A DNA stretch of 63,313 nucleotides, the filler included, from Collodictyon triciliatum (lineage: Eukaryota): assembly GCA_043381765.1 (NCBI GenBank). It is 6 parts of 6 records of this genome, joined end to end, with 100 filler letters (N's around TTAATTAATTAA, not from the genome) between each part and the next. Parts side by side here need not be neighbours in the genome. Positions count along the whole stretch, not along the records: positions 52,631 to 61,146 come from JBHJMP010002122.1; 5 more parts are not named here. One strand, 5' to 3'. Shown here piece after piece: positions 35,663-61,246 of this stretch (its first letter is position 1; each line of letters begins with the position of its first letter). The translations under genes and the position numbers were made by a program. Under the pieces are notes generated by a model. The model did not search any database. It was not told the DNA's origin and saw only the letters and a program-made list of their open reading frames with translations.

Positions 35663-38600
35663 CTAATGAAATAAGGTGGATATAAAGTTATTCGAGATGT
35701 CCAGAATAACTAGATTCGTTAGAAGGGTTATTTCATATGGAAGAGCAGAAAGTCGATTGCCAGAGATATGTAGACCAGTAAGACCTGTTAGGCCATATAT
35801 CTCTGCAGGTAACGTGTAAATTCTGTTATTTGACACATTGAAAGATATCAAACCTGTAAACTCGTATATTTCGGAAATTGATGGTATCGCATTATAAGAA
35901 AGATTAAGTGTAGCTAGCTTTGTTATTTTCGATGCAGCAATTGGAAATGCCGTAAATTTGTTTCCTGATAAGTTGAGGGAAGTTATATGCTTCAAATCCA
36001 ACAAAGCCGTGGGAATTGCAGATATCTAGTATGTAATAGAAATGATAAATCATTAAGATGAAGAATAATGATTAGGAAGGGTCCAAAATCAAATTGTTCA
36101 AGAAATACCCAAAGGAAATTACCCTATTATCTGATAGATCAACTATTGACTTTTCTGGTAGCAGATTAAATTCTGAAGGCAATTCTTTCACACCTTTATC
36201 CGAAATAACAACTTTGTCTTTGGTGAAAGAAATCGAATCGAGAAAGAGTTGCAAAGATGATTGAAATTTGTTTCTTTTCACGCTCATGACTTCAATATTC
36301 ACCATTTTCCTCATGCTCGGCAGACAGCTTACCTTTTTTTTTTAAATTAAATAAATAAATAAGTCAGTATCACATATTGTATTACTTATGAAGTATTTAT
36401 GGTAGTGTTATAGATATAATGTAAAGTCACTTGATTCAAATCCATGAGTAGCTGTTCAAGTGATGTCAAAATCGAAATTGCAGAGGGGATGGAAGAAAGT
36501 TTATTTTGTGAAGCGTCAAGTATTTGCAGTTGGGTTAGAGAAAAAATATCGGAAGGTAATGCTGACAAATGATTCCTGGAGAGGTCAAATACAAATATTT
36601 CTTGCAGGTTCGACAGCCCAGGTGGGAGCAGTTGTATCTGGTTGTTTCGAAATGTAAGGTGAATCCCATAAAAATTAAGAAATAAATTGTATTGCTGAGT
36701 AATTACCTTGTTATTTGATAAGTTCATATTACGCTTCACTGGAAGAAGCATAAGCTCCACTGGAATTTCTTTAATATTCTTTCCAGAAACCTTAATCGTG
36801 TCTTTGCTAAAATAAACAGATTCAAAAAACTGTTTTGTTTGCAGTGGAAACTTGTTCTTTTCAAGGCTTAGTCGTTGGATTTTGGTCATCCCTCTGAAAT
36901 TGGGGACTTGGGACACCTTGCGGATTAAAATATAGGGTTTTTTTTGTTAAAATAATAATATCATCCACAAAGTAAGGATATATAAGCTTTGATAGCTAAT
37001 TACTTCGTTCTCGTGGATCAGAAATAGTTCAAGGTTTTCCAACGCAGATATTCCAGGTGGTATTTGTGAGATTTTATTGGTGGAAACGTCCAAAGCAGTG
37101 AGTCGAGAAAGAGCGGAGAGTTCGGGTGGTAATGATGAAATACTATTTTTTGAAACATCGAGATGAACGACCTCCAACAACTTTGATATATCAGGAGGTA
37201 AGGACGATATCTAATATTTTGCAGATAACACAAATAAGTGTATGGAATGGTCATATTTCATATAATTATTGAATATTGACATGTTTACTAGGTGATTTTC
37301 AAGCTCAAGTTACCAAGTTGTTGGACACGTTTACAACCGCTTTTGATGGAAATGACATGAAATCAGATAGAAGCACTTTCAGACTCTTGTGAGATATATC
37401 AAGTTCATCTTTTCTAATAGCAACTGAATCAACCAATTCTTGTAATGAGTGTTGAAAGTGGTTTTGCTGAAGGTTAATTCTTTGGATATTAGCCATGGCT
37501 CTCATATCAGGAACATAAGAAATCTATTTAAAAAAACGATAAAAAAACAAACAAACAAACCAAAAACAACAAATAATTGAGCTAAAATATTTTACTACAT
37601 ACAAAAAGTGTTATTTTTTTTAAAATACCCGATTTCCATAAGCATCCAAATGTAATAATTTGGATAAACGCGATATCTCACGAGGAAGTTGAGTTATGTA
37701 GTTGTTTGATATTTTGAATGATAACAAATCAGTAAGGGATGCTATTTCTGGAGGGATTTCCCTAATCTTGTTATCAGATATCCAAAGGCTTGTTAGTTTT
37801 GTCAGGAGCGACACCTCACTAGGCAATGCCTCAATATCGCCAGGTTTGAAAGAAAGCAAGACACAATTCTCTAGCAAAACAACACCGGGGAATCCTCTGG
37901 GATTCAAAGAGAGAATGCTTTTACAACTCTGTTTTATAAAAAAAAAAGTATTATGAGAATCCATTTGGCAAGAAGAAATGGAAATGTCTATAACTTCAAA
38001 TATGTTACAGTTTCATAAATTGAATATGTCGAATGCTCTGGTTTAAATGAGATAGGAGGTATTTTCACGAGGGGACGGCTCAAAAATGATGCCATACATA
38101 TATACTGATTAAACAAGTGTGTCAAAATATTTGCAAGAAAAATACTTACACCCTTATTTACTACCATCCCACAAAACATATCCCTCAAGTGCTCGAGAGT
38201 TGGGCGACTAGTGGGAACCTGACTTAAAGCCATCCCGAGAATACTCTTGAGGTAATCGTTCTTTATGAAGTGAGAGTCGAATTGAAACTCTTTCGGTATT
38301 TTCTTTGCGACAAGCATCCAAATAATGCGTCCAATATCATAGACTCGGTTTCTTTCATATTCCACTATCCATTCTCGCGAGTTGACATATTCCGAATCTA
38401 CTTTGAAGGGGTCTTTTCCTCCCAATGAGACAGCAAGCTCTTTGCGTTTCGTGAACGAGATGTAATCACGCAATCGAACAGAGCCATCTTGTTTCAATAT
38501 AAGAGTGTCCAACTCCAGGTCGATCGCAAAGATTGCATGTCTGCAGAGAAAGATGACGGCGTTGCATATATCAAGACCTAGTCGCAGCACTTCCACCGCC

Positions 38601-38920
38601 GAAAAAGTGTTTTTAAATATGATGTCACTAAAGGAAGCAGCCTCGTCATATTCACATACAAGACATGCTGTATCTTTGTCCATATAGCCGCCCAGAAAAG
38701 CAGTGACATGCTGGTGAGGAGGGAGCCGGACTAGGCTACTCATTTTCTCCATTAAGCAAGCAATCTCCTTTGCAGTACAGTCCGGCAGTTTTCGGCGTGC
38801 TACAATGACAGGCTTCTCCGTGTCCCGGACAACTCCGCGGAACAGGCGGCAATCATCTCCGACTCTGATGAAATGCTGGAACACAACGTCGCTCTTTTGC
38901 AAGTGGACAAACTGGCTCAT
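35663..38920 (-). CDS. N-terminal pseudokinase with C-terminal leucine-rich repeats, 8 exons
   Basis: Kinase fold (HQHVTAFLG, LVCEY, GLDICNAVIFL, VYDIGRIIW, RPT) lacks the catalytic motifs. LRRs follow the LxxLxLSxNxI/LxxLP pattern. All seven introns are GT-AG and phase 0. Confidence 0.85.
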
Positions 38921-39079
38921 CTTCTTGTGCGTTTGCGTTGGTGTTGATGTTGGTTTGTGCGGCTCTGGGGGTATACCTTCGAGGAGACTGAGCGAAGGCT
39001 TTTTTTTTTTTTTATGAGTGCGGGTTTCATTGTTTTTTTTTAGTGGCAAGGTGATATGCTTCTTCAGTCAATTAGTAGC

Positions 39080-39388: not shown

Positions 39389-39488
39389 NNNNNNNNNNNN
39401 NNNNNNNNNNNNNNNNNNNNNNNNNNNNNNNNTTAATTAATTAANNNNNNNNNNNNNNNNNNNNNNNNNNNNNNNNNNNNNNNNNNNN
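39389..39488. other. Artificial contig linker
   Basis: N44-TTAATTAATTAA-N44. Confidence 0.97.
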
Positions 39489-51989: not shown

Positions 51990-52247
51990 CTGGTGTCTTT
52001 CTGTTTGAAAGGCTGCGTATAATGGGAATGAGTTCTGGTGTTTGCTTGGGTTTGCTGAAAGGAATGCCCAAGTCTTGTTGGTTGAAGGAGGTGGAGTTGG
52101 ACGTGTTCTTTTTACTTTTTTCATTTTTTTTTACTTTTTTTTCTTTTTTTACTTTTTTTTCTTTTTTTACTTTTTTTACTTTTTTTTCTTTTTTTACTTT
52201 TTTTACTTTTTTTACTTTTTTTTTATCTTTTTTTATCTTTTTTTACT

Positions 52248-52278
<31 letters not shown>

Positions 52279-52530
52279 CTTTTTTCTTTTTTCTTTTTTC
52301 TTTTTTCTTTTTTCTTTTTTCTTTTTTACTTTTTTACTTTTTTTCTTTTTACTTTTTTCTTCTTTTTTCTTTTTCTTCTTTTTTTCTTCTTTTCTTTTTT
52401 CTTTTCTTTTTTCTTTTTTTCTTTTTTTCTTTTTTTCTTTTTTTCATTTTTTCATTTTTTCATTTTTTCATTTTTTCATTTTTTCATTTTTTCATTTTTT
52501 CATTTTTTCATTTTTTCATTTTTTCATTTT

Positions 52531-52630
52531 NNNNNNNNNNNNNNNNNNNNNNNNNNNNNNNNNNNNNNNNNNNNTTAATTAATTAANNNNNNNNNNNNNN
52601 NNNNNNNNNNNNNNNNNNNNNNNNNNNNNN
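52531..52630. other. Artificial contig linker
   Basis: N44-TTAATTAATTAA-N44. Confidence 0.97.
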
Positions 52631-52728
<98 letters not shown>

Positions 52729-52803
52729 TGAAAGAAGGAGAGGAACAGGGAGGGAGAGGGAGAGGAAGTTGATTTGAATCTAAAGTAATTTTAAAGAGAC
52801 TTT

Positions 52804-55099
52804 TTAAATCCACCTTTTCATAAAAGGGTCATCATTAAAATCCTTCATTTCTTGTTCTTTTTTTGTGACGGTAAATTTGTCTCTCATGTAATTCATAACA
52901 GATGAATTTAACGCAGAATCCAATATAGGTTGCACCAGTCTCTCTACTTTTTCAAAGAAAGAAATGATGAACGCCGGGCCAGCTTTCCTTAAAAAGACCA
53001 TTGCAATTAACCCGTTAGACAAGGCGATTAGAGCAACGAGTAAATATTCCGAAAATATACTAAGGTCTGAATACCGCAACAAAAGGCTTGTCATCAAAGT
53101 AAAATAAAGTACTAATGTTGACCAGATATGAGATTTTTTCAGAAATTTGGACATAAACGGCTTGAAATACGTTGATAACCATATGCTTAATATCAAAATC
53201 CAGGAACCAAAGTAAATTTGTGAAGATGGAGAAAAGAAAATACTGATTAAAACGACAAGCAGCTTTTGCATCATAGTCACGATTTCCCAGTAAAAGCATT
53301 TTTCATTATATCCATCAACCAAAAATCGGAACAAAGTATAAGTGTCAGAAGTTGGATCAATTAGTGACGCCCTTTTGTAGAACATGTATGTAGCAAGAAT
53401 AAACGGGCCACCAAAACAATACAAAATAAGGTAAGCCAAGCAAATATATTTCCATACGAGATAAGTTGCATCATCACACATAATTGACATGTCAGCATTC
53501 AAGAAACTTACATCACCAAACCTCACACAATCAAATATATTTGTTACCGATGATGTGATAGTTGGGTGAACAAAAAATAGCATTACCAGCATGGAAAAAA
53601 TTAACTCTTGGTTAATTTTGAAGAAAGTAATATCTATTCTATTAATTTGATTGGTTCTTAATTTCCAAGCTGTTTTGGCTGTGAGAATTAAAATAACCAC
53701 TACTATCAGCATCAGAGGGGTCATCATTGAATACAACACCTTATCATATATTTTCATTTGAATTCTACATTCCATCGGATACGTGTCTATCGATAAAGAA
53801 AAAAAAAAGGTAGCTGGAATTTTCATTATTGAGATTATGGTGAAGCTCCAGTCGACATCGAAGTTCGCCAAGTATGATAAAACTTGAAAATGAGTTACAA
53901 GTGTTTTTAGAATCTGTATTTCTGCCGTCTTTGGTTGTCTTGATTGCTCTATCATGAAAAAAACAAACAAGAGAGGTCCTGCGATGCTGAGGGATACTAA
54001 AAACTCACTCGCTCCCTGGTTGGGGCATGATTGACACATTTTTGAGACTGAATCATAAAACTGATCAGCAGAACAAATTCGCCAAATTTTGATTGAAGAA
54101 TCATAGCTTCCAGAAACAATTTTTGAGCCATCATAAGTGACAGTAACGCTACAAACACCACCATTATGGCCGTGTAATGTGCGAATCAAAGCTCCATCAG
54201 AAATATTCCAAATTTTGATTGTATAATCATAGCCTCCAGAAACAATTTTTGAACCATCAAGAGTAACAGCAACGCTATAAACACCACCATTATGGCCGTA
54301 CAATGTACGAACCAAATCTCCATTAGAAAGATTCCAAATTTTGATTGTATTATCCCGACTATCAAAAATTATTTTTGAGCCATCAGGAGTAACAGCAACG
54401 CTGTAACCACCACCATAATCGCCGTACAATGTGCGAATCAAAGCTCCGTCAGAAAGATTCCAAATTTTGATTTCACCGCCTCCAGAAACTATTTTTGAAC
54501 CATCAAGAGTAACGGCAACGCCATAAACACCACCACTACCGTACAATGTGCGAATCAAAGCTCCGTCAGAAAGATTCCAAATTTTGATTTCACCGCCTCC
54601 AGAAACGATTTTTGAACCATCAGGAGTAACAGCAACGCTATAAACAGCACCATAGGCGTACAGTGTGCGAATCAAATCTCTATTAGAAAGATTCCAAATT
54701 TTGATTGTATTATCATAATAACCACCTCCAGAAACAATTTTTGAACCATCAAGAGTAACAGCAACGCTATAAACACCCCTATAATGGCCGTACAGTGTGC
54801 GAATCAAATCCCCATTAGAAAGATTCCAAATTTTGATTTTTCTATCATAATAACCACCTCCAGAAACAATTTTTGAACCATCACGAGTAACAGCAACGCT
54901 ATAAACACCATCATAATGGCCGTACAGTGTGCGAATCAAATTATCTTGTCCTTCAACTTGACAAAATTGGCAGTGTAGTATCAACCCTAAAATATATTTC
55001 TTAAAATTCTATCTAATTTGAAGTCAATTAAATTAAAACAACTATTAACGACTCACCCAACAGCAATATGGCTTCAAAAAAATTTGAGTTCAGTCTCAT
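52804..55099 (-). CDS. Signal peptide, 7 WD40 repeats, Cys linker and multi-pass TM domain (741 aa; exons 55099-55057 and 54986-52804)
   Basis: Exon 1 [15 protein letters not shown]|gtgagt...ttttag|GG (70-nt intron, in frame), then [15 protein letters not shown]. Seven WD40 repeats follow, then [18 protein letters not shown] and about 9 hydrophobic segments with [37 protein letters not shown] motifs (TRP-C/PF06011-like protist membrane domain). Confidence 0.85.
54076..54939 (-). repeat. Seven tandem 117-132-nt WD40 units with high internal nucleotide identity
   Basis: Units begin TTGATTCGCACA (unit 6 TTGGTTCGTACA). By hand count, units 1 and 2 differ at 9 of 132 nt. Confidence 0.95.
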
Positions 55100-58000
55100 T
55101 CTAAATTAAATGACGTGTTATAAAAGGTTAAAATAAAATTTTATGGCATGGTGTCTACTACCGAATAAGATATTTTTATCTAATATCGAACGATTACACT
55201 ACTTTCTAATTGATCGATATAGAAATACATAGCTATAAAGCATATAAATAGCCTCAACAAAATTCATGTAAATATAATCTCTCAATATGTAGTCACTCTT
55301 ATTATATCAATTGGTAAGGTTTTACAATTTTATTTGTTGGACGAGTGATTGAATCAGATGATTCATGAAATATTATTAAAAGTAAATAACGTCTCCCATT
55401 CAAAATAAATCGATATAAACTCACAAATTAATTGATAAGGACTTTTAAAATAATTCATTCCAATGAAATATTTTAAAAAATCATTTTTCAATAAATAATA
55501 TGTAAATTTTTGATGTGGTAGTTAGAGATAAACCACTGATAAATTCTTGGATAAATCCTGTTTTGAAAACAAAATAAGTCATTATACGATATACGAACAC
55601 GATGTAAAACATGGAAATAATGCAATGTAGCCTTATAATTAACAAATACAAGAATAGATCATAAGAAATGATTTAAAATTAATTATAAATGAAAAGATAA
55701 TATATGATTCAGTTTGAGACAAATATTGGTTTATCTAAGTTATAAATCAATAAATTATGGTAAACACAATACCCGAAGATTCCACAGAAGCACAAAATTA
55801 ATCAATCATATGTACTTTAAATCAAAATATAATATAATACCTTTAAATAAACTAAAACGTATTATTAATAAACCAACAATTTACACGATTTTAAAGGAAT
55901 ACAATATCATAAAACATTTATATGTTATGGGTATCAAGAAATAAGTGTACATCTGAATTATGAATAAATTTTATTCATCGGATGAATATTATCAAAAGAT
56001 AATTTCATAAAAAATATTTATTACCAGAAACATCGGTATCTTTTGACAAATTAATTTAATCATTGACCATCTATATTAATATTCCTCTAAATGAAGAACT
56101 ATTATTACCAATAAATTCCAAATAAGCATTAATCAGGCTATTATTCAATATTCATTATCATGTGTACATATTTATAAAACAAGAAATTTGCAAATTAAAA
56201 TCACTTAACTTTTTCTGTCTAAAATTTATACATTTTAATTAATCATGCAATCACAGCTGTTAAAAATATTCATATTATTAGATAATTTATATTGATTCAA
56301 TGATAAAAGAAACCCTGTTTGTTTGACTATGACGAATGAACATAATGTAGGAGCAAACAAAAATATTAAATTGGGAACATGTTTTTCAATAACCTCTGTT
56401 TGGCAATTAAAATTATGATTAAATAAAACTTATTAAATTATCTATCAGTTAACTGGACCATCGATTATTTCATAAATATGTTTACTCTTGAAGTACAACC
56501 AAATGTGCTATGAATAAGAGCTCAAGCGATGAATCACATCCTAATTTTCGGTATAATTTAATAAACTGATTGAAATACCATATAATGTTGTGTGAGTATT
56601 TGATATCATCTATTGGATGTTTAATGATTCTCGATAAGTTTCAGTATTAATATGCATTTATTTATCTGATTCATATCAGCTATTACCTTATTCTCTATCA
56701 TAAGGCTCTAAACAGTGTTTCCTAATCATACTCTCTTTAAATGAAATATTTTTCACAGTAACCATATTAATATAATTCATTGAACTAAAACAAGCTATAA
56801 TAATCGTAACCAAATCTTACTGATGAAAAAGTGATTATATTCTTTTGAACAGTAATCGTGTTATGTTTTATGTAAATCCTCTATTCCATTGAGAATTTCT
56901 AAATTGTATGCTATAAAGTTTCTTTGGAACTCTGGGTAAATTAAGTCTTCTTACAATAGCTTAGCCTAAATTATGACACAAAATATAGTTATTAATAGAC
57001 AAGAAATGCAACAAAAGTCTGAATATTAATTCATTTAATAGCAAAATCATTTTAAATGTAATTTATAATTGAAATTTAAGTCATTGAGGTCTTTTATATA
57101 TGCACCAATACAGAGATAATGAATGTTCCGAATCGAAAATTAAGTAAAATTGTTGGATAGTATAGAAATATATTAAGTTTTAATAATAATAATAAATATT
57201 TGCACTCTTCCTTATTCGACCAAATAGTAATAAACCGAATAATATCAAAGATTTGATAATATGGTATAATCGTCAATATGAAAAAAAATTAGAACTCATA
57301 CTGTATGTATGCTAATGCATGTGGTGAATAAAATAATAAACCATTCTATAAATCAATCAAAATATACAAAAACATTATGGATAGATTAAAATGGGTTAAT
57401 AAATATATTTGAATGATGGTAAATGTAAAAAAATAAAAAGGGCGTGAACCGTCTACCAAATCCTTGGTTAGTCGGGGCAACACAAAAATGCATATTAGAA
57501 ATACCTTTTAATTACCTATGATTATTTTGGGATTGGAAGGGGAAGGAGTGGGTATGTTGAATTCGATAAATCGACATCTAAATAATCAAAGAATAAAATT
57601 GAACAAATTCAGGTGATTTAATAACAATTGATTACCAGATAAATTTATTTATTGAGCGCTAAACCTATGAATCATTTTCACTTAAATGAACAAACAAGGT
57701 CTAGTTTTTGAGGGGTATAAGCATTAAGCTGTGGACAAAGATTACGTGTCAGTCAAGGGTGATGGTGTATCATTCAGCGGCAAATTGATTTTCAGCGAAG
57801 ATATGATATGCACATTTTTTGATCTGGATAATATAATGGTTCATATGTTATTAGATTTTTTTTAGAAGCATACTTGATGAAAAATATATCTATTGAATTG
57901 ATTAGAAAATAGTTTTTTCCATTATTTGATTCAAAGTGAATTAAAACGGAATATAAAACACAGCACCAAGAGTATGCATATAATAAAGCTATTTCAGTAG

Positions 58001-61000
58001 ATACGTAATTAAGCCAGTTTTTTGGTGGGATTTATTATTCATAAGGTGATAAGGAATAAGTTTATAAAAAGACAATCGACATAAAGATGCATATGCTGTC
58101 GACAAACAATTAATCTTGATTAAAATTAATTAGCAAATATATAGCTGAGACAATTATATTAATAGAAATGTTGCGGTATTGACACCATTTATTTCATGTT
58201 ATGATTAAATCTTTCAGCTTAATTATTAGCAAATAGCATGAACAGAATCTGATGATTGTTAATATTTTAGGTTTATATACTATCATTTTTAGATAAAGTA
58301 TTTATAAGTAATATTTTAACTAAAAATTATTCAATGTAATACATTTTTTCTTTTCTTTGGTAAATAGTGAATGTTTTCAAATAAGATGAACTATATTTAC
58401 CGCAAAAACGGATACATGACTTCTTATGACAGAAATTTACAAATAAATTTGATTTTGTTTTGATGATGAATGACTGGACAAAGACGTACTTAGTTCCACA
58501 CACAAAAACACCCAACAAAACCCACCGTACGTTCTTAGACCTTTACTTCAGACCAATAGGAAAACTAGAAGCCGCCGATCTACCAATCCTCCCCCTCCTC
58601 CAAGTAGTAGATCGAAACAGTTCCCTTTCCCACGGATTTTGTATTTTGTCCCCTCCATTTTCAACTGTATCTGAGTTTTTTCCATGACTTAAGTCTGAAC
58701 ATTTTCCGATAGAAGATAAATATAATTGTGTTAATTACGGAATATTAAATAAAATAACGCAATTTTTCATTTTGTCCATGAAGAAGCCAGGTTGGACCAT
58801 TTATCGAAAAAAAAAGCCTTTGGCACAAAATAAAGTTTGAATGATTTTTATTTTGTTATATTTTGCTAGAGGAATTGAAACTCAGTGTGTGTGTAATTTT
58901 GTTTTCTATCGTTGATTATTAATTCTATGATCAATTACGTGGTATATGAAATTTATCATTCTAATCATATTTTTTAAAAGTAAAACATACCAGGTTTGTT
59001 GTATGATAAAATTTGACCAGAACCATATTGTTCCACTATCAGAATGCTAATGAATCTAGCCTTAAAATTCCACTATTCTCATTTTAGATGTGTGATGAAT
59101 ATGTTAGTTATGAGTTTTTTGAAAAATATAAAATGTTCAATAAGCTAAGAATTCAATAAAAAGATAAATAATATAAAATAAATATTCTTTAAAAAATAAT
59201 GAAACGATCAAAATTTGCAGTATGACTCGTATAAGACCAAAAAAATGCGAGCGCAAAGTCCCTTTTGCGATGATATAGGGAACATGAGTCCTTCTTGATA
59301 TTTCGTGAGGTAATACTATGAAAAGCCTTTGTTGAAGTCCACCCTGAGATTATTATATTAATCCAGTGGCCATAATTTTGTATTAATTGAAAGGATATAT
59401 GTTAAATTCTCATAAAATCTTTTAATGTCGTAAAATTCAATTACCCTTGTTTTTTCGAACATCGTTTCTTTAAAGCCATACATCATCCAATTTCATCCAT
59501 TCCCTGTGAGAATTAAATGTAAGGGTTTACCAAGATAACAAAAAATCTGATTCTATCATTTACTTATAATCATGAAACCGAAAAAAAATGTGGATAAAGT
59601 CATATAAAGAACATCATACTTGAATTCTGCTGATTGAAGTGTGATTTTGTGACTGCATGTATGGCGTTGATAGGTTGACTATCTCCGGAGTATTACAATG
59701 GATTATCGTTTGTTTATGTTTCCAAAATTCTGACTTAAATTGAAGTCGCTATTTCAAAAAAAAAAAATTGAAGTACACATTTCGGAGTCTGCAAAAATAA
59801 TTTTACAATACACTTGCCGGTTCCACTAATGCCTTTGCTGGAGAAGTTATGCAGGTATGTCAGCTCTTACTTATAATCTGCTGAAATTTAGACATGCATT
59901 AGTCAAGAAAACTGATTTTTGGAGTTGAATAGAATGAACGAATATAAGGAATCTGATTGTAAAGGAGGGCAGGATGGTCGTGTGGACATTCGCACCCAGA
60001 GAGAAAATTTGACCTCCGATCAAATCCAGGTTAGGGCTCCTGATAGTTGCGGCTCTGTAGAGCTGTAATTATTCTCGACCCTCTCGAGTGCATATAGATA
60101 AGCCACAAATCCAGATTCCGTATGATGCTAGCCTAAACCCCTTAACCGACACGTGTCACTGCTTTCAACCAAGACACAACAACTATGACGGCCTGTAAAA
60201 AAAAAAAATCTAAACCCCCACCTCCCTCCCTCCCTCCCTTGAATCGAATAAAGGAAAAATATAGAGACGAGATATTATTATTTTTTCACTAATATGAGAT
60301 TCTTCTGAAAAAGGCCGAGTTGAGAAGAGAAAAGCAAACAGACCAACAACTAACCTGAAAGCAAATCCAATATCTAAGATATATTCTTAAAAATATGCGT
60401 CTGTATAATATACACCGAAGTGATCGTGCTGTGGGCAGAGCAACCAGATATTCAATCGCCTGATGCTCCCAGAAAGCATCACAAACTGCATGATATAGGA
60501 ATAGAATTCACTTTAACTCGTAATAATAGACAGTGAAATGAAAAATCAGCTAAAGCTTCTTTAAAAAATAAAAAATGGAATTAGGGGTATTTCGGGTAGT
60601 ATGGATGCGTGGCCAACAATGATTTGCGACAGGAAGGCTCAGAAATCTGGAAGATCCCAGCTCTCCTTGGCTTGCGAATACTTGTAATAATAAGGGGCCT
60701 AAAAACCTCTGCAGGAAGGAGGAATAGCTGAATTATAAGTTATTTGGATATTTAAATGAGTTTTGAGTTGTGGGTTTGTAGGTAAATACATGCAATGAGA
60801 TTGATTGTTGGCATGGGCGCCAACAGCTAAGTCTGTCGTGAATAAAAAAAAATACATGTAATGAGATTACATAAGGCAAGACTAAAGCCATTCATATATA
60901 GTTTTGTTGAAAGGACTCCTTTCTTGCTCGTTTTTTGTTTCTTTCATTTTACTGTTATTTTCCAGCGTTTGAAAGGCATCCTTACTCTCGATCAACACTT

Positions 61001-61146
61001 TTGGCTTTTTGACAAAGGTAATAGACTCGCTCAGGTTTAAGCCTTTTTCTAAAAAAAATAAAAAATGAAAATGAAGCTATGTTTTCGCGCTAGGTGTTTC
61101 AGTTTGCTTGGCCTTAAGTTGATCAGATGGTTTTTTTCTTTTTATT

Positions 61147-61246
61147 NNNNNNNNNNNNNNNNNNNNNNNNNNNNNNNNNNNNNNNNNNNNTTAATTAATT
61201 AANNNNNNNNNNNNNNNNNNNNNNNNNNNNNNNNNNNNNNNNNNNN
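61147..61246. other. Artificial contig linker
   Basis: N44-TTAATTAATTAA-N44. Confidence 0.97.

What the first reader, a model, noticed from the sequence alone, without database searches (positions are those of the whole stretch)
52804..55099. Candidate variable cell-surface receptor: secreted 7-blade WD40 propeller on a multi-pass membrane domain
Seen: the ORF track misses a 43-nt first exon (ATG 55099, GTGAGT donor, 70-nt intron) that splices in frame to give a signal-peptide-like N-terminus [29 protein letters not shown]. Exactly seven WD40 repeats follow, six with an N-x-S glycosylation sequon (WNLS/WNIS), then a Cys-rich linker and about 9 TM segments. Known: WD40 domains are almost always cytosolic or nuclear, and near-identical WD40 repeats are the hallmark of intracellular fungal allorecognition NLRs such as Podospora HET-e/HET-d. 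Inference: that kind of sensor module is here placed outside the cell on a TRP-C-like membrane domain, suggesting a non-self, prey or kin recognition receptor family. I do not recognise it as a described system.
Basis: partly seen in the sequence, partly recalled or inferred. Interest (0 to 1): 0.85.

Follow-up and report, generated by a model that had tools for sequence, protein, structure and literature searches.

The report
WD40 propeller on a 9-helix membrane receptor
This looks like an intact eukaryotic gene for a membrane receptor whose outward-facing part is, unusually, a seven-repeat WD40 propeller, attached to a nine-helix membrane domain that many protists use with other outer domains.

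Summary
They are a 43-nt ATG exon, a 70-nt GTGAGT...AG intron, an in-frame join to a 2.2-kb ORF, seven WD40 repeats, six N-x-S sequons, a 3-Cys linker and a multi-pass membrane domain. Splicing could not be tested.

The membrane domain is not an orphan. It finds 3909 representative proteins at E<=1e-3, from CRuMs, Amoebozoa, ciliates, a stramenopile and Rhodelphis. It sits at their C-terminus, behind large extracellular-type modules: TIG, FG-GAP, LRR, EGF, RCC1 and PQQ propellers, Ephrin_rec_like and DUF7630.

AlphaFold2 gives a confident nine-helix bundle (pLDDT 88.6) with no solved fold match. Relatives reach Pfam PF06011 "TRP", the fungal Pkd2/Flc type.

An N-out/C-in topology is supported by:
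- the charge bias across the loops;
- conserved loop cysteines on the predicted outer side;
- signal-peptide-like N-termini in relatives.

None of the 173 relatives in hand carries a WD40 like this one.

Verdict: a new ectodomain variant of a widespread, partly studied receptor or channel-like family. The "variable non-self receptor" reading has no support yet. It is not TRPW.

The parts
55057..55099 (-). Proposed exon 1: ATG plus 14 codons and 1 base; encodes the n-region and most of the h-region of a signal-peptide-like N-terminus
   Evidence: Nearest of 24 frame-compatible ATG...GT candidates, and one of 2 with a GTGAGT donor. Not verified by RNA.
54987..55056 (-). Proposed 70-nt intron, GTGAGT...TTTTAG, 20% G+C
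52804..54986 (-). Exon 2, one open frame to the stop codon at 52806-52804
54076..54939 (-). Seven tandem WD40 repeats (residues 31-318 of the spliced protein). Six carry an N-[LI]-S sequon in the c-d loop. Repeats 3 and 4 have a shortened b-c loop.
   Evidence: Pfam WD40 in 7 stretches, E 5.3e-52. PDB 2ymu E 2.3e-161. TRF period 126, 6.9 copies, 84% matches. Repeat alignment. The modelled part superposes on 7-blade propellers, TM-score 0.75-0.80 by target length over 255-270 columns, but the last blade has pLDDT<50.
54019..54075 (-). Short Cys-containing stalk (3 Cys, residues 319-337). Aligns with the C-terminal half of the juxtamembrane C-x2-C...C-x2-C-P module of relatives.
   Evidence: Alignment A1. 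No Pfam match of its own. Relatives carry Ephrin_rec_like or DUF7630 at this place.
52987..54018 (-). Nine-helix membrane domain (residues 338-681). Has a beta-hairpin outer loop holding the two family-invariant Cys (residues 501 and 518) and the conserved motifs HP, FL..GY, YWE...RK and P.
   Evidence: AlphaFold2 pLDDT 88.6, pTM 0.82. Conserved columns. 3909 relatives.
52807..52986 (-). Predicted cytosolic C-terminal tail (residues 682-741), helical, with 11 K/R

Best explanation
This is an intact gene for a multi-pass membrane receptor-like protein. It reads, in order: signal peptide, a seven-repeat WD40 propeller, a short cysteine stalk, a nine-helix membrane domain and a cytosolic tail.

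The membrane domain belongs to a very large pan-eukaryotic family. It is distantly related to Pfam PF06011 'TRP', the fungal Pkd2/Flc type. It shares its architecture with the apicomplexan and ciliate CRMPs. Family members hang interchangeable extracellular modules in front of the same nine-helix core.

Here the usual ectodomain has been replaced, by domain shuffling, with a high-internal-similarity WD40 array. That array is of the kind otherwise found in cytosolic NLR/STAND proteins and in bacterial proteins.

Inferred mechanism:
- The propeller faces the outside or the lumen of a secretory compartment.
- It binds a ligand on its top face, formed by the d-a and b-c loops, which are the positions that differ between blades.
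- The nine-helix core passes the event inward, most likely as cation (Ca2+) flux as reported for Pkd2, or as a trigger for regulated secretion as reported for CRMPs.

Shown here: the gene anatomy, the family membership of the membrane domain, and its nine-helix model. Inferred: splicing, topology, ligand binding and signalling.
For: Anatomy. Searches show the exon, intron and frame. Seven WD40 repeats are found.

Family.
- phmmer of the 425-aa C-terminal part against 1.84 billion representatives gives 3909 hits at E<=1e-3, 614 at <=1e-10 and 10 at <=1e-30.
- A profile of the domain matches all 173 fetched relatives. In 150 of 173, fewer than 250 aa follow the match. Among the 143 that cover the profile start, the median N-terminal extension is 990 aa.
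- I scanned 40 of the 150 listed hits with Pfam. Of these, 18 carry Ephrin_rec_like, 14 TIG, 6 RCC1 propellers, 5 DUF7630, 3 FG-GAP and 2 PQQ propellers. One each carries LRR, EGF, OpuAC or NCD3G, and 9 have no family.
- The named relatives come from Rigifila, Mantamonas, Clastostelium, Tetrahymena, Paramecium, Platysulcus and Rhodelphis.

Link to PF06011. Nine of 31 aligned relatives match at E<=0.1, best 5.1e-8. P0077 is above the gathering score. It is itself hit by this domain at 5.9e-19.

Structure. The model has nine helices, pLDDT 88.6 and pTM 0.82.

Topology (N-out, C-in).
- The N-terminus is hydrophobic.
- Internal loops hold 15 K/R in 82 residues on the predicted inner side against 7 in 94 on the outer side. 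The tail adds 11 K/R inside.
- The two family-invariant Cys and a third conserved Cys fall in predicted outer loops.
- 43 of 103 relatives that start with M and have at least 150 aa before the domain have a hydrophobic N-terminus.

Gene integrity. This protein keeps all seven invariant or nearly invariant family columns.

Literature (passages only).
- Pkd2 has a signal peptide, an extracellular domain, a nine-helix TMD and a cytoplasmic tail.
- Its Ca2+ permeability under membrane stretch is known to me from the listing and abstract start only.
- CRMPs have a conserved core of EGF/Ephrin-receptor-like domains plus 9 TM. TgCRMPa is N-out/C-in, and CRMPs have roles in rhoptry and mucocyst exocytosis.
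Against: - There is no RNA evidence for exon 1 or for expression.
- The protein's own membrane domain does not reach PF06011 or any other Pfam family at E<=10, so that link is transitive.
- Homology to CRMPs was not tested directly.
- No dedicated signal-peptide or topology predictor was available. Helix 2 is only weakly hydrophobic (mean 1.09).
- The full-length model is poor over the propeller: pLDDT is 50-80, and the first 27 residues and the last repeat are below 50. A closed seven-blade ring is therefore inferred from the repeat count, not shown.
- The blades lack the per-blade disulfides that the extracellular CRINKLY4 propeller has. They hold a single Cys in blade 7.
- The six sequons are close to one duplicated event.
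- The contig piece is short, and the gene ends 173 nt from a spacer of Ns. A misassembled junction cannot be excluded with reads, although WD40 and membrane domain lie in one uninterrupted N-free ORF.
- Nothing shows ligand binding, channel activity or surface location.
Confidence: 0.6

Rival explanations
1. It is a TRPW-type channel: an N-terminal WD40 propeller in the cytosol on a six-helix TRP / voltage-gated-like channel domain, as recently described in choanoflagellates and other protists.
For: The domain order is superficially the same, with seven WD40 repeats followed by a membrane domain. TRPW is reported across diverse eukaryotes (abstract and passages).
Against: - The membrane domain models as nine helices.
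- It matches no ion-transport, PKD-channel or other Pfam family at E<=10.
- Foldseek finds no TRP or voltage-gated channel at E<=1e-3. TRPM4 appears only at E 0.67 with TM-score 0.11. The all-against-all search lists none in its 50 rows.
- Its 173 fetched relatives carry extracellular-type modules and Cys-rich stalks.
- The protein has a hydrophobic N-terminus, whereas the TRPW propeller is intracellular.
Confidence: 0.03
2. One reading: a variable cell-surface non-self, prey or kin recognition receptor family. Its WD40 top face diversifies by repeat shuffling, as in the fungal HET-e/HET-d/NWD sensors.
For: - The repeats resemble each other at 84% DNA identity.
- Their closest database matches include fungal NACHT/AAA-WD40 proteins and the cyanobacterial repetitive propeller 2ymu.
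- Differences between blades concentrate in alignment columns 6-14 and 26-34. From textbook WD40 topology (recalled), these are the d-a and b-c loops of the top face.
- Two other members of the membrane-domain family with withheld accessions (P0003 at 58% identity, and P0077) may be paralogues.
Against: - No second WD40-bearing member exists among 173 relatives, even at E<=10, nor in the word-based search, where the best hit covers 17% of the query.
- Repeat dN/dS is below 1 in 20 of 21 pairs, with mean dN 0.14 and dS 0.22. That is neither recent homogenisation nor clear diversifying selection.
- Loop positions vary in any WD40.
- There are no population data and no whole genome.
Confidence: 0.12
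3. The protein is the same, but it works inside the cell. It would be resident in the ER, Golgi or a vacuole with the propeller in the lumen, for example as a transporter or channel of an endomembrane like the yeast Flc proteins, rather than a surface receptor.
For: PF06011-type proteins are reported at the ER as well as the plasma membrane (abstract starts in the listing). CRMPs spend most of their time in secretory organelles and are only transiently at the surface (passages). Sequence alone cannot tell surface from lumen.
Against: Relatives carry adhesion or ligand-binding-type modules (TIG, FG-GAP, LRR, EGF), which suit a surface role. No retention signal was looked for or seen.
Confidence: 0.15
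4. It is a gene-model or assembly artefact, or a young non-functional fusion. The WD40 array was recently inserted or misjoined in front of a family member and is not made as one protein, or the N-terminus is not a signal peptide and the propeller is cytosolic.
For: - The assembly is fragmented, and the window is built of pieces joined by N spacers.
- Exon 1 is only predicted, with 24 alternatives by frame.
- No identical annotated protein appeared in two protein searches.
- The stalk is reduced to 3 Cys.
Against: - There is one 2.2-kb ORF without Ns or frameshifts across the junction.
- All seven conserved family columns are kept.
- The array begins and ends at exact repeat boundaries.
- Any of the alternative first exons still joins onto the hydrophobic stretch encoded in exon 2.
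Confidence: 0.1

Closest known systems
Fungal Pkd2 / Trp663 / Trp1322 / Flc-type 'TRP-like' proteins (Pfam PF06011)
   Same: Signal peptide, extracellular N-terminal domain, a nine-helix membrane domain of about 400 aa and a cytoplasmic tail (passages). Relatives of this membrane domain match PF06011.
   Different: The fungal proteins carry an Ig-like / ML-like lipid-binding ectodomain, not a propeller. This protein itself does not reach PF06011. Its nearest relatives are protist proteins with Cys-rich stalks.
Cysteine repeat modular proteins (CRMPs) of Apicomplexa and Tetrahymena
   Same: Modular ectodomain, EGF / Ephrin-receptor-like Cys-rich modules next to the membrane, a nine-TM core, and an N-out/C-in topology shown for TgCRMPa. 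They are proposed to be contact sensors for regulated exocytosis (passages). Ciliate proteins are among this domain's relatives.
   Different: Direct homology was not tested here. CRMP ectodomains are Kringle, MAR, lectin and EGF, not WD40. This protein is far smaller (741 aa) and has only a 3-Cys stalk.
TRPW channels (WD40 + TRP channel; bioRxiv 10.64898/2026.06.15.732144)
   Same: A seven-blade WD40 propeller lies N-terminal to a membrane domain in a protist sensory protein.
   Different: The TRPW propeller is cytoplasmic. Its membrane domain is a six-helix, tetrameric, voltage-gated-like pore with a TRP helix. Here the protein has nine helices, no such fold match and a signal-peptide-like N-terminus.
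Plant CRINKLY4 receptor kinases
   Same: An extracellular seven-bladed propeller (called WD40 by the authors), followed by a Cys-rich domain and then the membrane. It is N-glycosylated (passages).
   Different: CRINKLY4 blades each have a disulfide, and its nearest structures are BLIP-II and UVR8. It is single-pass with a kinase. Here the repeats are canonical PF00400 without blade disulfides, on a nine-helix domain.
HET-e / HET-d / NWD-type WD40 arrays of fungal NLRs, and repetitive bacterial WD40 (PDB 2ymu)
   Same: Tandem WD40 units of high mutual similarity. These are among the best sequence matches.
   Different: Those are cytosolic and follow NACHT/NB-ARC or HET domains. No such domain is present here. 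Repeat identity here is 61-89%.

Membership tests
WD40 repeat (Pfam PF00400), seven-blade propeller | Repeated GH...WD units recognised by the family profile above its cut-off | tested here: met
   172.5 bits against a cut-off of 27, in 7 stretches
WD40 repeat (Pfam PF00400), seven-blade propeller | Closed ring of seven four-stranded blades | tested here: inconclusive
   The model superposes on 7-blade propellers over 255-270 columns, but the first 27 residues and the last repeat have pLDDT<50
Nine-helix 'Ephrin_rec_like/DUF7630 + TRP_C-like' protist receptor family (defined here by the hits) | Significant sequence match along the whole membrane domain, with the conserved Cys pair and the motifs HP, GY, YWE..RK and P | tested here: met
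   E down to 1.3e-42 for non-paralogous hits over query residues 5-365. Invariant C185/C202 and five nearly invariant columns are present.
Nine-helix 'Ephrin_rec_like/DUF7630 + TRP_C-like' protist receptor family (defined here by the hits) | Juxtamembrane Cys-rich module (PF07699 or PF24633) | tested here: not met
   No Pfam match in this protein at E<=10. Only a 3-Cys remnant aligns with the last half of the module.
Pfam PF06011 'TRP' (fungal Pkd2/Flc type) | Profile match at or above the gathering score | tested here: inconclusive
   Not matched by this protein. Matched by relative P0077 at 29.4 bits against 28.5 and by 9 of 31 aligned relatives at E<=0.1.
Pfam PF06011 'TRP' (fungal Pkd2/Flc type) | Nine transmembrane helices, extracellular N-terminus, cytosolic tail | tested here: met
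   Nine helices in the model. Topology is inferred from charge bias and Cys positions.
CRMP (cysteine repeat modular proteins) | Sequence homology of the conserved core (EGF-like domains plus 9 TM) to apicomplexan CRMPs | not tested
The resemblance rests on the architecture described.
TRPW / TRP channels of the voltage-gated superfamily | Six-helix S1-S6 pore domain with a TRP helix | tested here: not met
   The model has nine helices. No Pfam channel family at E<=10. Foldseek's best TRP row is E 0.67 with TM-score 0.11.
TRPW / TRP channels of the voltage-gated superfamily | Cytoplasmic WD40 propeller (no signal peptide) | tested here: not met
   Hydrophobic signal-peptide-like N-terminus.
HET-e/NWD-type fungal NLR | N-terminal effector (HET) and NACHT/NB-ARC domains before the WD40 array | tested here: not met
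   The 25 best of 44 Pfam matches are all WD40/propeller families. Only about 30 residues precede the array.

The most novel reading that the evidence does not exclude
This would be a eukaryotic receptor that displays a canonical, high-internal-similarity WD40 propeller outside the cell. Its top-face loops, the positions that differ between blades, would form a ligand surface that diversifies by repeat shuffling, as in HET-e/NWD immune sensors. That would give a surface non-self or prey detector gating a Pkd2/CRMP-like nine-helix transducer.
Probability: 0.12. Interest if true: 0.8.

Novelty: new variant of a known kind. Interest (0 to 1): 0.5.

Why it matters
WD40 propellers are the standard intracellular scaffold. 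The only extracellular 'WD40' found in print here is the atypical, disulfide-braced CRINKLY4 propeller.

If this gene's product really exposes a canonical WD40 array to the outside, it shows two things. First, the fold can work in the secretory pathway without blade disulfides. Second, the nine-helix Pkd2/CRMP-like core accepts almost any binding module. RCC1 and PQQ propellers occur in relatives.

It would also give a small (741 aa), tractable member of a family whose other members run to thousands of residues. The signalling mechanism of that family is still open, whether channel, GPCR-like or exocytosis trigger.

Tried and rejected
- Whole-genome search: no genome is held for this window, so paralogues could not be counted.
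- RNA evidence: no RNA holder was listed for 52790-55300, so the junction is untested.
- Word-indexed protein searches:
  - With the membrane domain alone, only P0003 was found.
  - With the last repeat plus the membrane domain, the search was swamped by WD40-only proteins. There were 15 hits, with at most 17% coverage.
  - With the alignment and longer proteins, there were 17 hits. One of them, T. thermophila P0186, has only sub-threshold propeller matches and no phmmer match to this WD40.
- Fold searches of the membrane-domain model:
  - Foldseek found nothing at E<=1e-3.
  - The all-against-all search gave a best Z of 8.1 (Hrd1, rmsd 7.1 Å over 194 residues). That is within the range the tool calls common for helical bundles. 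No known fold is assigned.
- Full-length fold: the propeller came out at low confidence. I attribute this to the alignment holding almost no WD40 relatives.
- ESM Atlas: only neighbours without names, or with Ephrin_rec_like / TRP / DUF7630 on a minority of members. These are leads only.
- Earlier-findings look-ups: empty.
- Literature:
  - 'DUF7630' gave 0 papers.
  - 'extracellular WD40' gave 2 papers.
  - Six variant phrasings together gave 1 paper.
  - The Eph/ephrin paper says nothing on this membrane domain.
- Direct comparison with CRMP sequences was left out, because none came from a search tool. The supplements of PMC9815656 that list them were not opened.
- Codon and GC comparison of the WD40 and membrane parts (GC3 0.24 against 0.37) was judged uninformative, because the repeats are not independent.
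Full report
**1. Observation**

Read on the minus strand, the region holds a 734-codon stop-to-stop frame at 52804-55008. That frame has no Met until about residue 330. The WD40 part therefore cannot be translated without an upstream ATG exon.

ATG is at 55099, the exon is 43 nt long, the donor is GTGAGT, and the intron is 70 nt long, 20% G+C, and ends in TTTTAG. The join is in frame and gives 741 residues. An in-frame TAA lies 9 nt upstream of the ATG (read).

Enumerating all ATG...GT exons in the 2 kb upstream that fit this acceptor's phase gives 24 candidates, of which 2 have GTGAGT. The proposed exon is the nearest and gives the most hydrophobic N-terminus. Every alternative still joins onto the hydrophobic stretch encoded at the start of exon 2.

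No RNA run was listed for the locus, so splicing remains a prediction.

**2. The propeller**

- Pfam finds seven WD40 stretches, at 172.5 bits against a cut-off of 27.
- The units occupy residues 31-318 and are 38-44 aa long. Repeats 3 and 4 have a shortened b-c loop.
- The closest solved relative is the repetitive Nostoc propeller 2ymu, at E 2.3e-161, followed by the designed 7-blade WRAP-T proteins and WDR5.
- The repeats are 84% alike as DNA and 61-89% (mean 77%) alike as protein. They are similar, not near-identical.
- Between repeats the mean dN is 0.14 and the mean dS is 0.22. dN/dS is below 1 in 20 of 21 pairs.
- Differences cluster in alignment columns 6-14 and 26-34. By textbook WD40 topology (recalled) these are the top-face d-a and b-c loops, but such loops vary in any WD40.
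- Six of the seven units carry N-[LI]-S just after the Trp. Related WD40-only proteins have WN.[ST] at 4 of 96 repeat ends. Composition shuffles give 2.1 sequons on average (P=0.009). Because the units are copies, the six sequons amount to roughly one event that has been retained.
- The full-length AlphaFold2 model is weak over this part, with pLDDT 50-80 and the first 27 residues and the last repeat below 50. Its alignment held almost no WD40 relatives.
- What was modelled superposes on seven-blade propellers, with a TM-score of 0.75-0.80 by target length over 255-270 columns.
- Ring closure is therefore inferred from seven complete units, not shown.

**3. The membrane domain**

On its own, the C-terminal 425 aa matches no Pfam family at E<=10 and no PDB sequence. 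An exhaustive phmmer search of 1.84 billion representatives nevertheless finds 3909 proteins at E<=1e-3, 614 at <=1e-10 and 10 at <=1e-30.

- In 150 of the 173, fewer than 250 aa follow the match.
- Among the 143 that cover the profile start, the median N-terminal extension is 990 aa, and 109 exceed 300 aa.

I scanned 40 of the 150 listed hits with Pfam at E<=1e-5.

| Pfam module | Hits (of 40) |
|---|---|
| Ephrin_rec_like | 18 |
| TIG | 14 |
| RCC1 propeller | 6 |
| DUF7630 | 5 |
| FG-GAP | 3 |
| PQQ propeller | 2 |
| LRR | 1 |
| EGF | 1 |
| OpuAC | 1 |
| NCD3G | 1 |
| No family | 9 |
| WD40 | 0 |

Named members come from Rigifila, Mantamonas, Clastostelium, Tetrahymena, Paramecium, Platysulcus, Rhodelphis and an unplaced eukaryote.

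The family alignment shows:
- an invariant Cys pair in a loop;
- nearly invariant G, G, W, K and P columns;
- a juxtamembrane C-x2-C...C-x2-C-P module.

This protein keeps all the conserved columns but only the last half of the Cys module.

**4. Structure and topology**

With alignment A1, AlphaFold2 gives a confident model of the membrane domain: pLDDT 88.6, pTM 0.82, nine long helices and a beta-hairpin loop that carries the invariant Cys pair.

Neither Foldseek nor an all-against-all structural search finds a solved counterpart. Foldseek has nothing at E<=1e-3. The all-against-all search gives a best Z of 8.1 at rmsd 7.1 Å, which is within the noise range for helical bundles. No TRP or voltage-gated channel stands out.

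Taking the nine hydrophobic cores from the model, an N-out/C-in arrangement fits the charge and cysteine pattern.

- It puts 15 K/R in 82 loop residues inside, against 7 in 94 outside.
- It puts the 11-K/R tail inside.
- It puts the three conserved loop cysteines outside.

Among relatives that start with M and have at least 150 aa before the domain, 43 of 103 have a hydrophobic, signal-peptide-like N-terminus by a crude hydropathy threshold. Many of the rest are likely truncated transcripts.

With the extracellular-type modules of relatives, these points make an outside (or lumenal) propeller the best reading. No dedicated predictor and no experiment back it, and helix 2 is only weakly hydrophobic.

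**5. What it is like**

*PF06011 and fungal Pkd2.* Nine of the 31 aligned relatives match Pfam PF06011 'TRP' at E<=0.1, best 5.1e-8. P0077, which this domain hits at 5.9e-19, exceeds that family's gathering score. PF06011 is the family of fission-yeast Pkd2. Passages read describe Pkd2 as a signal peptide, an extracellular domain, a nine-helix TMD of about 405 aa and a cytoplasmic tail. A listed abstract reports its Ca2+ permeability under membrane stretch (listing only).

*CRMPs.* Passages on the CRMPs of Toxoplasma, Plasmodium and Tetrahymena describe:
- a conserved core of EGF / Ephrin-receptor-like domains plus nine TM helices;
- homologues in Dictyostelium;
- an N-out/C-in topology shown for TgCRMPa;
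- a role as contact sensors for rhoptry or mucocyst discharge.

That is the same architecture as the family found here, and ciliate proteins are among the hits. I did not test CRMP homology directly.

*TRPW.* The recently described TRPW channels share only the domain order. Their propeller is cytoplasmic and their membrane part is a six-helix tetrameric pore. This is contradicted here.

*CRINKLY4.* This is the only extracellular 'WD40' found in print. Its blades are braced by a disulfide each, which this propeller lacks.

**6. Explanation and rivals**

The best-supported reading (about 0.6) is as follows.

- The protein is a member of this pan-eukaryotic nine-helix receptor or channel-like family.
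- Domain shuffling has put a canonical WD40 array in place of the usual ectodomain.
- The propeller binds a ligand outside the cell.
- The nine-helix core transduces, by cation flux or by triggering secretion.

The transduction step is inference by analogy.

| Rival | Confidence |
|---|---|
| Endomembrane rather than surface location | 0.15 |
| Artefact or non-functional fusion | 0.10 |
| TRPW | 0.03 |

No WD40-bearing second member was found among 173 relatives, even at E<=10, or in a word-based search. The 'family of variable WD40 receptors' is therefore unsupported, though it is untestable without the genome.

**7. Novelty and score**

The membrane family is widespread and partly studied. 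The WD40 ectodomain on it was not found in the sequence set I could examine or in the literature searches. I rate it a new variant of a known kind, with interest 0.5. It is unusual enough to merit a cDNA and a topology experiment, but it is a single, unexpressed-as-yet gene model on a short contig.

Noticed in passing
window 13068-13167, 26231-26330, 39389-39488, 52531-52630, 61147-61246: Five spacers, each made of two 44-N runs 12 nt apart. At 52575-52586 the 12 nt read TTAATTAATTAA. The window therefore looks like separate contig pieces joined by stop-in-all-frames spacers, so 'neighbours' in other pieces need not be linked. The gene studied lies in the 8.5-kb piece 52631-61146, 173 nt from its end.
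   Followed up: partly
window 6398-13111 (-): A 2237-codon open frame that runs into the spacer at 13068, so it is cut at a contig end. It has pentapeptide repeats (E 8.3e-10) followed by WD40/propeller matches. Its WD40 is only distantly like the one studied (E 2.5e-14). It may be a large STAND-like or repeat protein.
   Followed up: partly
window 24740-26038 (+) and 37988-39067 (-): Open frames with NHL repeats (E 1.2e-19) and a weak protein-kinase match (E 1.8e-7, below or near the cut-offs), lying in other pieces of the window.
   Followed up: no
window 52640-52760 and 52000-52530: A long (TC/GA)n microsatellite lies directly after the gene's 3' end. Beyond the spacer there are A-rich AAAATGAAAAA-type repeats. 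Both produce spurious low-complexity ORFs in several frames.
   Followed up: no
P0007, P0011, P0012, P0017, P0027, P0050 (Rigifila and unnamed relatives): Six of the 40 scanned family members carry RCC1-type propellers in the ectodomain position, and two carry PQQ propellers. RCC1 is normally a nuclear or cytosolic fold, so this receptor family has recruited 'intracellular' propellers more than once.
   Followed up: partly
P0164, P0162, P0166, P0167 (bacterial or metagenomic WD40-only hits): Several close WD40 matches have hydrophobic N-termini. One is named a T9SS type A sorting domain protein, so secreted WD40 arrays of this repeat type appear to exist in bacteria.
   Followed up: no
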